19,835 nucleotides of DNA from a virus (taxonomy: Duplodnaviria > Heunggongvirae > Uroviricota > Caudoviricetes), in IMG/VR virus record IMGVR_UViG_2534681832_000045, one strand, 5' to 3'. Shown in pieces: positions 6,001-9,000 of this stretch. Within the stretch, counting starts at the first letter, position 1. Each line of letters begins with the position of its first letter. A program made the position numbers.

Positions 6001-9000
6001 AGATGAGTCCTCGCAGTTCGATGACGAAATCGTTGACAATATCTTCGGTGCACTCACCAGAGACTTTCTGAAGTAAAGGCGCATACCGCTTAGTTACCGC
6101 TCTGATAACTCTTACCTGTCCGGCAATGGCGCTGATATCAATATAAAGCGCCATCGCTGTTTCTTTGCTGATCCCTGGACGCCTTCCATTCTGATGTTTG
6201 ACTTCGCCCACTGAGAAATCCTCTGCTTCCCCTTAACGCCGGGTAGCGGAACTGTTTGCTGAGAACACCGTGCGGTGTCTTGATGAGTAGAATTTAGAAT
6301 AGCCTAAGAGTTATGGTCAAGCTTTTTGTGTAGAAAAACCTAAGCTTCTTGATGTAAAAAACACAAGTATTTGAAAGTTTGTGCTTTTTATTACAGAGAG
6401 TTGCGAAAAAAAGGGGGTTATTTATTTGCGCTTCTTTTGCGAGCTTTGAGTAGTTCTTCAAAAAGTTTGTTGAAATTCTCAACTCGAGCACGCATCTCTG
6501 ACAACAGAGCCTTTTGCTCTGACTCAGGCAGTGCGTCGAACAGTTGAAGCAACTCTTTTTGATCTTCTGTCAGATTGACTGGCTGATTATCTGGGATCGG
6601 TTCGCCTGGTTGCTTATCTTCATCTCCAAAAAGAAGCCAAGTCGGCGAGCACTGAAGCGCCTGGCTCAGTGCGAATAATCTCTTCCCCGCTGGCTGTGTT
6701 TCATCTCTTTCCCATTGAGAAATTGTTACGTGAGCCACTTTGACCAGCTTACCTAATGCGGCCTGAGACAGTTTTAATTTTTTCGCCTGTATAAGAGGCG
6801 AGCACCGAAGGTTTCGTTTTTCATATTAGGTAATTCTAATTTTTCTTGACTTAGGTTTCTCTACGATCTAGTTTCCTTAGGAAAATCTAAGGGGTTCGAT
6901 ATGTTGAAAATTGATGCTATAGCGTTTTTGGCAGCAAAACAAAGCTTGCCAATGTCGCAGGAGTTAGGCTGGCAAGCGTTGCTGCATGGGGGGAACTGGT
7001 TCCTGAAGGTCGCGCGATGCGCCTGCAAGAGGCATCCGGCGGGGAACTTCAGTACGACCCCAAAGTTTATGACGAATATCGTAAGGCAAAGCGGGCGGGG
7101 CGGTTGAACAATGAAAATCACCACTGAACAGGTTTGTGAGGCTCTGGATACCTGGGTATGCCGACCAGGAATGACACAGGAGCAGGCGACGATATTAATC
7201 ACGGAAGCATTCTGGGCTCTGAAAGAACGCCCGAACATCGATGTTCAACGCGTCACGTTTAATGATGGCGAGGTTGATCAACGGGCGCTGGGCGTTAACC
7301 GGGTGAAGATATTCGAACGCTGGAAAGCTATCGACACCAGAGATAAGCGTGACAAATTCACGGCGCTGATTCCGGCAATTATGGAGGCTATCCGGATCAG
7401 CGATTTCAGATTGTATTGTGAAATTACTGACGGAAAAAGCATTACGTACATGATCGCCGGGTTAAACAAAGAATATGGCGATGTGGTGGAGTCCGGGCTG
7501 CTTTTTGCGGATCCAGTTGTTGTGGAACGTGAGACTGACGAGCTTATAGAAAAAGCTATTGCTTTCAAGCACGCGTATCGTCAGCAATACCAATATTACT
7601 TTGCAGATAAACAAATGTCTGCCAGGGGTTCGTATGAGTATCGATGCACTACGATGGGCTAAAAAGGTGAAAACCGGCAGTTCATCCAGTAAGTCAGTAT
7701 TGACCTGGCTTGCTGATATGTGCGGTGCCGATTTGTGTGCATACCCGTCTGTATCTGCACTGGCAGAAGTAACGGAACTGAACAAAAAGACTGTGCAGGA
7801 CAGCTTACGACACCTGATGGAGATTGGGTTAATTGTTGATACCGGTGAGAGAAAAGGCAGAACAAAGCAAATTGTGGTGTACCGACTTATCGGTGTAGAA
7901 GAAAGTGTTGCCGAGCCTGAATACACCCAAAAACGGGAGTCTTTAAAGGTGGGTAAAATTGGTGCTGTTAATAAAAACAGTACCGAAAATGGTTATGTTT
8001 CAGCACAAAACAGACCCAAAAACAGAACTCTTAGCTGCATGGAAAATAACCAAAGACACCCAAATTTTCCATCAAAGACACCCAAAAACGGATCACGGAA
8101 CCCAAAGGAACCCAAAGATCTAAACCCCACACATAACGCACGCGAGAGTGCTCCGACCAGTGAGCAGGAAGTTTTGTCGTTACAGGCAGCCCCCCCTGTA
8201 TTCCTGTATGGCCTGAGCGAACCCATCGGAAAATTCCCGATGAGCGATAGCTGGTATCCGTCACGGGATTTTCGACGACGGGCTGCGTTGTGGGGGATGG
8301 CTTTGCCGGAGACAGAATTTACACCTGCTGAACTTGCCGCCTTCCGGGACTACTGGGCAGCGGAGGGGAAAGTGTTTACGCAGATTCAGTGGGAGCAGAA
8401 ATTCGCCCGTCACGTAAATCACGTCAGGGCGCAGGTTAAACCAGTCAGCAAAGGGGTAAACCATGCAGCAGCACCAGGTGGCACCGCATCACGGGCAGTT
8501 CAGGAAATTCGGGCAGCACGTGAGCAGTGGGAACGTGAAAACGGATTTATCAGCGACGGAAACGGCCTGGAAGCTGTGGGAACTCATGGGGGTGGTTTAT
8601 TCGAACCGCTGGATCCAGAAGAACGGGGCCGCACCTTCGAAGCTCTGGATTGCACAGATTGGCGCGATGACTGAGCAGCAAATCCGGCAGGTCTGCCGCC
8701 AGTGCATGGACCGCTGCCGGGCGGGTGAAACATGGCCTCCGGACCTGGCTGAGTTTGTGGCACTGATTTCGAAAAGCGGAGCCAATCCATTCGGTCTGAC
8801 GGTGGATGCTGTGATGGAGGAGTACCGCCGCTGGCGCAATGAGTCCTGGCGATACGACGGAAGTGATAAGTACCCGTGGTCTCAGCCTGTGCTGTATCAC
8901 ATTTGCCTCGAGATGCGTTCAAAGGGGATTGAGCGCCAGATGACCGAAGGGGAATTAAAACGGCTTGCAGAACGGCAACTGACGAAATGGGCAAAGCATG

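What the first reader, a model, noticed from the sequence alone, without database searches (positions are those of the whole stretch)
6291..6892. Shared CCTAAG/CTTAGG hexamer in both control regions flanking the dicA-like repressor gene
The hexamer occurs twice as a direct repeat downstream of the repressor gene (6303-6308, 6339-6344), overlapping a -35-like TTGACC on the minus strand. It occurs three times in the dicA-dicC intergenic region, including a CCTTAG-n6-CTAAGG inverted repeat over the dicC-like start region. This is the pattern expected for operator half-sites of one repressor controlling both the immunity switch and the leftward division-inhibition operon.
Basis: partly seen in the sequence, partly recalled or inferred. 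Interest (0 to 1): 0.4.

Follow-up and report, generated by a model that had tools for sequence, protein, structure and literature searches.

The report
Prophage repressor operators flanking dicA-like gene
The repeated CCTAAG/CTTAGG hexamer is the conserved half of five 18-bp repressor-binding sites that flank a DicA-like prophage repressor gene, an ordinary variant of the known P22/Qin immunity switch with a different DNA specificity.

Summary
The core observation holds; some details are wrong. CCTAAG/CTTAGG occurs 5 times in 19.8 kb, about the chance number (6.0). But 4 of the 5 copies lie in the 337 bp of the two control regions flanking the dicA-like gene (binomial P = 4e-7; local shuffles P about 2e-4).

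Each hexamer is the left half of an imperfect 18-bp dyad. All five share TTAGG-N4-TCTA. The window holds no other copy, even with one mismatch.

The sites sit where P22/lambda-type operators sit. Three are in the dicA-dicC intergenic region and two bracket the -35 of the leftward promoter, which drives the DicF/dicB operon.

The layout matches Qin of E. coli K-12 site for site. There the genetically defined DicA operator Oc is TTGTTAG-N6-CTAACAA.

The repressor's N-terminal domain is a close homologue of P22 C2 (E = 1e-21), whose operators are ATTTAAG-N4-CTTAAAT.

Across 245 related loci, operator half-site position 2 covaries with repressor helix 2 (Ala22 with C/A/T, Arg22 with G).

This is a new specificity variant of a known system, of low interest. 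In this window both dicA and dicC carry homopolymer frameshifts.

The parts
6292..6309 (-). OL-proximal operator, TCTTAGGCTATTCTAAAT on the minus strand. Lies between the -35 and over the -10 of the leftward promoter.
   Evidence: Nearly invariant in 37 unique PL variants, while the 6 bp next to it are hypervariable. Matches K-12 TGTTAGTCATGGCTAATC in position.
6328..6345 (-). OL-distal operator, GCTTAGGTTTTTCTACAC on the minus strand. Lies 7 bp upstream of the -35.
   Evidence: 93% complementary to the PR middle site, I3. Conserved in relatives. K-12 counterpart is GTTAGCTATAGCATAC.
6291..6320 (-). Leftward early promoter, the equivalent of Qin dicBp or lambda PL: TTGACC (6320-6315), 18-bp spacer, TAAATT (6296-6291).
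   Evidence: Promoter scan. The TTGACC -35 is conserved with K-12 dicBp. Function is inferred.
6824..6841 (+). Third PR-side operator, the 'Oa' equivalent: TATTAGGTAATTCTAATT. Abuts the dicA start codon (6824-6822, minus strand) and contains a TAGAAT -10-like hexamer on the minus strand (6838-6833).
   Evidence: Matches K-12 Oa AGTTAGCTAATGCTAAAT in position. Its role as a dicA-promoter operator is inferred.
6849..6866 (+). Middle PR operator, the 'Om' equivalent: ACTTAGGTTTCTCTACGA. Contains hexamer 6850-6855. Fills the spacer of the dicC promoter.
   Evidence: Conserved in Pantoea, Enterobacter, Erwinia and Klebsiella phage relatives.
6875..6892 (+). dicC-proximal operator, the 'Oc' equivalent: CCTTAGGAAAATCTAAGG, with perfect 6-bp arms. 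Lies directly after the -10 and overlaps the dicC Shine-Dalgarno AAGGGG.
   Evidence: Matches in position the genetically defined Qin Oc, TTGTTAGTTATGACTAACAA (PMC3441716).
6846..6874 (+). Rightward promoter for the dicC-like gene: TTGACT (6846-6851), 17-bp spacer, TAGTTT (6869-6874).
   Evidence: Read from the sequence. Aligns with the K-12 dicC promoter TTGACT-17-TATCTT, whose start site was mapped by 5'RACE (PMC3441716). The simple scan did not call it, because the -10 matches only 3 of 6.
6418..6824 (-). dicA-like repressor gene, 135 aa when intact. Here it is frameshifted by a T6 run (6778-6783); relatives have T7.
   Evidence: Pfam HTH_3. N-terminal 68 residues match the P22 C2 N-terminal domain, E = 1e-21, with V33 and Q37 conserved.
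6901..7127 (+). dicC-like Cro gene, 75 aa when intact (Pfam P22_Cro). Frameshifted at the T5 run 6925-6929. The same defect is annotated in RefSeq O111:H- 11128.
6355..6390 (-). Hairpin with 12-nt arms followed by a T-run. Probably the dicA terminator, insulating PL from dicA read-through.
   Evidence: (I9). Function is inferred.
4174..6154 (-). Leftward operon controlled from PL: a 99-aa ORF (5855-6154), a ydfC-like gene (5564-5782), a 135-aa ORF (5134-5541), DicF RNA (4537-4588) and dicB (4174-4362).
   Evidence: Rfam DicF, 76.7 bits. Pfam DicB, E = 3.7e-38. RefSeq annotation of the 99.9% identical O111 locus.

Best explanation
The hexamers belong to five 18-bp operators of the P22-C2/DicA type. 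Each has a 7-bp half-site, 4 central bp and a second 7-bp half-site, and all share xxTTAGG-NNNN-TCTAxxx.

Proposed mechanism:
- A dimer of the DicA-like helix-turn-helix repressor, encoded between the two operator sets, binds these sites.
- At PR, the sites in the promoter spacer (6849-6866) and at the start site (6875-6892) block the dicC-like (cro) promoter.
- The third PR site (6824-6841) covers the dicA start and a likely -10. It would allow negative autoregulation, or shut-off of dicA by the Cro-like DicC.
- At PL, the site over the -10 (6292-6309) and the site upstream of the -35 (6328-6345) block transcription of the leftward operon, which carries DicF and dicB.
- The DicC-like protein most likely uses the same sites, as lambda Cro and Qin DicC do.

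The outer bases of the half-site (CC/xC here, TG in Qin) set immunity specificity. This prophage should therefore be heteroimmune to Qin.

Shown: the sequence pattern, its placement, its conservation and its covariation with repressor type. Inferred: binding, the order of site occupancy and the regulatory outcome.
For: - The motif is exclusive to the two control regions: 5 of 5 hits against 0.21 expected, and no 1-mismatch hit elsewhere. The hexamer clustering has P about 2e-4 to 4e-7.
- All five sites point the same way relative to the divergent early promoters, and they overlap core promoter elements.
- The sites match Qin K-12 position for position: Oa, Om, Oc and two dicBp sites, with -35 hexamers TTGACT and TTGACC conserved.
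- In Qin, DicA binds Oc in vivo and a single Oc base change abolishes binding (PMC3441716). Deleting dicA raises dicBp 22-fold (PMC10448788). DicC ChIP-seq shows binding on both sides of dicA, with a TTxG...CxAA palindrome (PMC11430063).
- The repressor's residues 2-69 align with the P22 C2 N-terminal domain (PDB 1ADR, 2R1J, 3JXB; E = 1e-21), with V33 and Q37 conserved. P22 operators read ATTTAAG-ATAT-CTTAAAT, the same 7+4+7 format with a TTAxG core (PMC5175364).
- Covariation: 80 loci with helix 2 SQAAL have half-site position 2 as C 27, A 8, T 4, G 2 among 41 unique sites. 165 loci with TQR have G 69, A 3, T 1, C 0 among 73 unique sites. A Klebsiella phage with QS at those residues also has CCTTAGG sites.
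- Footprint: in 37 unique PL variants both sites are nearly invariant, while the 6 bp between the -35 and the proximal site differ in 30-90% of variants. In PR, variation falls in the central 4 bp, the -10 and the 5' UTR.
Against: - No binding or reporter data exist for this repressor variant.
- In K-12, DicA bound only Oc, not Om or Oa, in an in vivo assay (PMC3441716, data not shown there). Motif presence therefore does not guarantee occupancy of every site.
- The relatives are close, so much flanking sequence is also conserved. The covariation rests on two main clades and may reflect few independent events.
- The right half-sites of the two 'CTAC' sites are weak, matching their left arms at only 4 of 7 positions.
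- In this window the dicA-like gene is frameshifted and dicC is frameshifted too. If that is real, no cognate protein is made in cis.
Confidence: 0.8

Rival explanations
1. Only some of the five sites are working operators, most likely the perfect palindrome 6875-6892 and the PL-proximal site 6292-6309. The rest would be decayed relics, or low-affinity sites that matter only through cooperativity.
For: Yun et al. report that K-12 DicA bound Oc but neither Om nor Oa (PMC3441716). The right arms of 6849-6866 and 6328-6345 (TCTACGA, TCTACAC) match their left arms at only 4 of 7 positions.
Against: The weak sites are as conserved as the strong ones across E. coli, Pantoea, Enterobacter, Erwinia and Klebsiella phage loci. 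All five keep the same 9 fixed bases.
Confidence: 0.3
2. The sites are used mainly by a protein other than the DicA-like repressor: the DicC-like Cro protein, or a host factor such as YjdC that can act on DicA targets.
For: Qin DicC ChIP-seq peaks lie on both sides of dicA, with a TTxG...CxAA palindrome. The same paper states that YjdC regulates DicA targets when DicA is absent (PMC11430063). In this window dicA is frameshifted.
Against: Shared operators for repressor and Cro are the rule in lambdoid switches, so this does not exclude DicA binding. Operator position 2 covaries with the DicA helix-2 type. dicC itself is frameshifted in this lineage, yet the sites are kept.
Confidence: 0.1
3. 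The hexamer copies are chance matches, or by-products of AT-rich promoter sequence, with no operator role.
For: The whole-window count equals expectation: 5 against 6.03. The two regions are AT-rich, with GC 0.34 and 0.43 against 0.485 for the window.
Against: Composition-matched shuffles of the two regions reach 4 copies in 0.02% of trials. The 13-bp motif is unique to these regions. The sites occupy four different positions relative to promoter hexamers. There is also positional homology with Qin operators and covariation with repressor type.
Confidence: 0.03

Closest known systems
Qin (E. coli K-12) DicA/DicC immunity region: operators Oa, Om and Oc, plus the dicBp operators
   Same: Same gene order (dicC, divergent dicA, then the dicB operon with DicF). 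Same -35 hexamers (TTGACT, TTGACC). Same number and positions of TTAG-N6-CTAA dyads. The same conserved leader follows PL. DicA proteins are about 60% identical, including the non-cleavable short C-terminal domain.
   Different: Half-site outer bases differ: TGTTAG(T) in Qin against (C/x)CTTAGG here. Repressor helix 2 differs: TQRSLAKALK against SQAALGKLVK. Recognition helix start differs: SHVSVS against AHVTIS. Heteroimmunity is therefore predicted. Qin Oc is a perfect 8+4+8 palindrome, whereas the best site here has 6-bp perfect arms.
Phage P22 C2 repressor and its OR/OL operators (consensus ATTTAAGATATCTTAAAT)
   Same: The N-terminal DNA-binding domains are homologous (E = 1e-21), with V33 and Q37 conserved and helix 2 (QAALGK) identical. 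The operator format is the same: 18 bp, 7+4+7, with a TTAxG core (PMC5175364). The partner protein belongs to Pfam P22_Cro.
   Different: The half-site is TTAGG rather than TTAAG. Recognition helix residues 31, 32 and 34 differ (A, H, T against S, N, A). The C-terminal domain is the short DicA type, not the RecA-cleavable C2 type (PMC10448788). Two OL sites were detected here, not three.
Lambda CI/Cro with OR1-3 and OL1-3
   Same: Divergent repressor and cro promoters share a tripartite operator. A second operator set sits at the leftward early promoter. Spacing between sites is 25-26 bp centre to centre.
   Different: The operator sequence is unrelated. The repressor has no SOS-cleavable domain. 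The leftward operon carries cell-division inhibitors (DicF, DicB) rather than N.

Membership tests
Lambdoid immunity operators of the P22 C2 / DicA type | Dyad-symmetric sites of about 18 bp (7-bp half-sites around 4 central bp) with a TTAxG core | tested here: met
   All five sites read xxTTAGG-N4-TCTAxxx. Site 6875-6892 has perfect 6-bp arms. The format matches the P22 consensus quoted in PMC5175364.
Lambdoid immunity operators of the P22 C2 / DicA type | Multiple copies both between the divergent repressor and cro genes and at the leftward early promoter, overlapping core promoter elements | tested here: met
   Three sites lie in 6824-6892 and two in 6292-6345. They overlap the spacer, start site and -10 of the predicted promoters.
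Lambdoid immunity operators of the P22 C2 / DicA type | A cognate HTH repressor and a Cro-type protein are encoded next to the sites | tested here: met
   DicA-like: Pfam HTH_3, and the P22 C2 N-terminal domain at E = 1e-21. DicC-like: Pfam P22_Cro, E = 3e-13. Both genes are frameshifted in this window.
Lambdoid immunity operators of the P22 C2 / DicA type | Operator sequence co-varies with repressor specificity type across relatives | tested here: met
   Half-site position 2 is C/A/T with Ala/Ser22 repressors and G with Arg22 repressors, across 245 loci plus a Klebsiella phage.
Lambdoid immunity operators of the P22 C2 / DicA type | Sequence-specific binding of the repressor to the sites, and repression of both promoters | not testable with these tools
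   Needs EMSA, footprinting or reporter assays. Only the Qin homologue has such data (PMC3441716, PMC10448788).
Qin DicA operator specificity (same immunity as E. coli K-12 Qin) | Half-site TTGTTAG(T), as in Oc TTGTTAGTCATAACTAACAA | tested here: not met
   The sites here read CCTTAGG, ACTTAGG, TATTAGG, GCTTAGG and TCTTAGG. None has G at position 2. The layout is homologous but the specificity differs.
Phage P22 immunity (immC) specificity | Half-site ATTTAAG and a C2 recognition helix SNVAISQ | tested here: not met
   The half-site core is TTAGG, not TTAAG. The recognition helix reads AHVTISQ.

The most novel reading that the evidence does not exclude
Immunity specificity in this DicA/C2 family may be set at half-site position 2 by residue 22 in helix 2 (Ala or Ser reading C/A/T, Arg reading G) rather than by the recognition helix. 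Two observations point this way:
- The window-type repressors and the E. ruysiae/albertii/Citrobacter-type repressors have identical recognition helices (VAHVTISQWERDETQP).
- Their operators are otherwise near-identical (TCTTAGGTTATTCTAAAT against TGTTAGGTTATTCTAAAT) and differ at exactly that base.

A further oddity: in this window all five sites are polar (TTAGG on the left, TCTAA on the right) and point along the lytic promoters. This could mean the two arms are read differently, or by different proteins.
Probability: 0.3. Interest if true: 0.4.

Novelty: new member of a known kind. Interest (0 to 1): 0.2.

Why it matters
The same immunity module is in 751 of 5426 complete E. coli genomes. 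These include O111, O145 and O157:H7 strains, where it controls the DicF and DicB cell-division inhibitors.

Knowing the operator sequence has three practical uses:
- It predicts which prophages are co-immune and which are heteroimmune.
- It predicts which loci a DicA-type repressor could cross-regulate.
- It shows where to mutate in order to derepress or silence the operon.

The residue-22 / position-2 correlation is a cheap, testable rule for specificity in a well-studied repressor fold. Beyond that, this is a textbook lambdoid switch and changes no concept.

Tried and rejected
1. Whole-window enrichment of the hexamer: not enriched (5 against 6.0). The signal is in placement and in the extended motif.
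2. A third PL operator: no site with at most 1 mismatch to TTAGG-N4-TCTA exists.
3. The symmetric pattern CTTAG-N6-CTAAG with 2 mismatches is not discriminating (6 hits against 5.6 expected). It recovers the five sites plus one chance hit at 6089.
4. The original Qin operator papers (Bejar 1986, Cam 1988) are not held in the library. I used Yun 2012 and Ragunathan 2023 instead.
5. The conserved PL leader: no Rfam family at E up to 10. It shows no sequence similarity to HK022 putL or putR. An automatic consensus fold of the whole leader failed on a poor alignment. Only the short second hairpin gained modest covariation support.
6. A second copy of the repressor that could complement the frameshift: the module is single-copy in nearly all genomes.
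7. I did not use structure prediction or the large protein searches. Homology to P22 C2 was already decisive.
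Full report
**Context**

The window is a lambdoid prophage of enterohaemorrhagic-type E. coli. It is 99.9% identical to the prophage next to ompW in O111:H- strain 11128, and it matches the 'PPompW' prophages of O145:H28, which are described as defective (PMC8112680).

The finding covers the immunity region:
- A dicA-like repressor gene on the minus strand (6418-6824).
- A divergent dicC-like cro gene (6901-7127).
- A leftward operon downstream of dicA, carrying DicF RNA (4537-4588; Rfam 76.7 bits) and dicB (4174-4362; Pfam DicB E = 3.7e-38).

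**The observation**

CCTAAG is at 6303-6308 and 6339-6344, and its reverse complement CTTAGG is at 6850-6855 and 6876-6881. The inverted repeat CCTTAG-N6-CTAAGG is exact at 6875-6892.

Four details in the finding need correcting:
- The 'third' intergenic copy (CTAAGG, 6887-6892) is a one-base-shifted hexamer, not the same one.
- The downstream copies flank the TTGACC -35 (6320-6315) and do not overlap it.
- The downstream copies are not a bare direct repeat, because each has a partner arm 11 bp away.
- A fifth site reading ATTAGG at 6824-6841 was missed.

**Is it more than chance?**

- The window-wide count is at expectation: 5 against 6.03.
- Four of the five copies lie in the 337 bp of the two intergenic regions (binomial P = 4e-7). 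Dinucleotide shuffles of those AT-rich regions give a mean of 0.30 copies and reach 4 in 0.02% of trials.
- The only copy elsewhere is at 10116.
- TTAGG-N5-CTA occurs 5 times, only here, against 0.21 expected; 0 of 200 shuffles reach 5.
- The tighter TTAGG-N4-TCTA has no additional match in 19.8 kb even with one mismatch.
- The repeat finder independently links all five sites as direct or inverted copies of each other.

**Anatomy**

Each site is written along its lytic promoter:

| Side | Coordinates | Sequence | Position |
|---|---|---|---|
| PR | 6824-6841 | TATTAGGTAATTCTAATT | Abuts the dicA ATG (6824-6822) and covers a TAGAAT hexamer on the dicA strand |
| PR | 6849-6866 | ACTTAGGTTTCTCTACGA | In the 17-bp spacer of TTGACT (6846-6851) / TAGTTT (6869-6874) |
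| PR | 6875-6892 | CCTTAGGAAAATCTAAGG | Directly after the -10, over the dicC Shine-Dalgarno |
| PL | 6345-6328 (minus) | GCTTAGGTTTTTCTACAC | Upstream of the -35 |
| PL | 6309-6292 (minus) | TCTTAGGCTATTCTAAAT | Between the -35 and over the -10 of TTGACC-18-TAAATT |

Centre-to-centre distances are 25 and 26 bp at PR and 36 bp at PL. A hairpin with a T-run (6355-6390) between dicA and PL looks like the dicA terminator.

**Comparison with Qin**

The K-12 dicA-dicC region reads CAT-AGTTAGCTAATGCTAAAT-...TTGACT-ATGTTTTTGTTAACATC-TATCTT-GTTAGTTATGACTAAC. It has the same -35, the same 17-bp spacer and dyads at the same three places.

The K-12 dicBp region has GTTAGCTATAGCATAC, then TTGACC, then GTTAGTCATGGCTAAT. 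This is the layout seen here, with GTTAG in place of CTTAG.

Experimental work on Qin:
- Yun et al. showed genetically and in vivo that DicA binds Oc (TTGTTAGTCATAACTAACAA) and that one base change abolishes binding. They reported no binding to Om or Oa (PMC3441716).
- Ragunathan et al. showed 22-fold derepression of dicBp on dicA deletion. They restate that both intergenic regions hold three operator-like sequences (PMC10448788).
- DicC ChIP-seq shows the strongest peaks on either side of dicA, with a TT(A/C/T)G...C(G/A/T)AA palindrome (PMC11430063).

**The repressor**

Residues 2-69 of the intact protein align without gaps to the P22 C2 N-terminal domain (1ADR, 2R1J, 3JXB; E about 1e-21). 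Helix 2 (QAALGK) is identical, and the DNA-reading residues V33 and Q37 are conserved.

P22 operators are ATTTAAG-ATAT-CTTAAAT, with V33 packing on the TTAA methyl groups (PMC5175364). The sites here fit the same 7+4+7 frame with TTAGG in place of TTAAG. The partner protein is a Pfam P22_Cro member.

**Comparative evidence**

I collected 245 DicA-like loci from genomes and viral contigs.

- 80 loci have helix 2 SQAAL. Their PR and PL regions carry on average 4.9 sites, with half-site position 2 as C 27, A 8, T 4, G 2 among 41 unique sites.
- 165 loci have helix 2 TQR, including Qin. They have G 69, A 3, T 1, C 0 among 73 unique sites.
- A Klebsiella phage repressor with QS at residues 21-22 also has CCTTAGG-type sites.
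- The E. ruysiae/albertii type has the same recognition helix as the window type. Its operators are nearly the same apart from position 2 (TGTTAGGTTATTCTAAAT against TCTTAGGTTATTCTAAAT).
- Among 37 unique PL variants of the window type, both operators are almost invariant. The 6 bp between the -35 and the proximal operator differ in 30-90% of variants.
- In PR, substitutions fall in the central 4 bp of the sites, the -10 and the 5' UTR.
- The sites persist in Pantoea, Enterobacter and Erwinia at 74% repressor identity.

**Mechanism**

Inferred from the above: a DicA-like dimer occupies these operators. This occludes the dicC promoter and the leftward promoter, silencing DicF and dicB.

- The dicA-proximal site would allow autoregulation, or shut-off by the Cro-like DicC.
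- By analogy with Qin, repressor bound at the dicC-proximal site, centred about 58 bp upstream of the dicA ATG, may also activate dicA. The dicA promoter has a good -10 (TAGAAT, 8 nt before the ATG, suggesting a near-leaderless mRNA) but no -35.
- These last points are speculative.

**Caveats**

- No binding data exist for this variant.
- In K-12 only Oc bound DicA in the one assay reported.
- The covariation rests on a few clades.
- In this window both switch genes are broken. dicC carries a T5 run where relatives have T6, a defect shared with RefSeq O111. dicA carries T6 where relatives have T7 at 6778-6783.
- The window differs from O111 11128 by only 3 substitutions and 4 homopolymer shortenings over 16 kb. 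The dicA frameshift may therefore be an assembly error, although the same allele occurs in two IMG/VR contigs.
- The module is single-copy in nearly all of the 751 complete E. coli genomes that carry it, so a second copy could not complement a real loss.

**Verdict**

The feature is a new specificity variant of a well-known kind of element, the P22/Qin-type immunity operators. It is of low general interest, with one modestly interesting lead: residue 22 may read half-site position 2.

Noticed in passing
window 6778-6783 (also 6413-6417, ~14381, ~15457): The dicA-like gene is frameshifted by a T6 run where the 99.9% identical O111 reference has T7. It would give a 16-aa product. Every indel difference between the window and that reference is a homopolymer shortening, which suggests assembly error. 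The same dicA allele does occur in two IMG/VR contigs (L085, L086).
   Followed up: partly
window 6925-6929: The dicC-like cro gene is frameshifted (T5 against T6). RefSeq annotates the same defect in O111:H- 11128, while most IMG/VR relatives encode an intact 75-aa P22_Cro protein. In this lineage the lytic arm of the switch therefore appears to be lost.
   Followed up: partly
window ~6225-6285, minus strand (leader downstream of PL): A conserved leader of about 70 nt directly follows the leftward promoter and is shared from K-12 Qin to Pantoea and Citrobacter prophages. It contains CATCAA, a hairpin ACACC-GCAC-GGTGT (6278-6265), CTCAG, GTTCCGC and a short hairpin with a conserved loop GGCG(A/T)TAA. 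That hairpin's 4-bp stem covaries (88.6% paired; 1 of 500 shuffles reach this). There is no Rfam match and no similarity to HK022 putL. Its function is unknown; it might be a nut/put-like or translational element.
   Followed up: partly
window 6355-6390: An inverted repeat with 12-nt arms (92% complementary) and a 12-nt loop, flanked by T/A runs, lies between the dicA stop codon and PL. It is probably a terminator insulating the dicB-type operon from dicA read-through.
   Followed up: no
window 11703-11852, 16152-16324, 15135-15207, 15301-15374: Rfam hits elsewhere in the prophage: the sok antitoxin RNA (next to hokD in the reference annotation), the STnc100 sRNA and two tRNA genes (Ile and Arg in the reference).
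   Followed up: no
loci L006, L007, L182-L253 (E. ruysiae/albertii-type immunity regions): These heteroimmune relatives keep TTGACTTAGGT at the dicC -35 but have lost the right arm of the middle site (CTTAGGTATCCCGCGC). In that group the middle operator appears decayed, while the outer sites switched to GTTAG.
   Followed up: no
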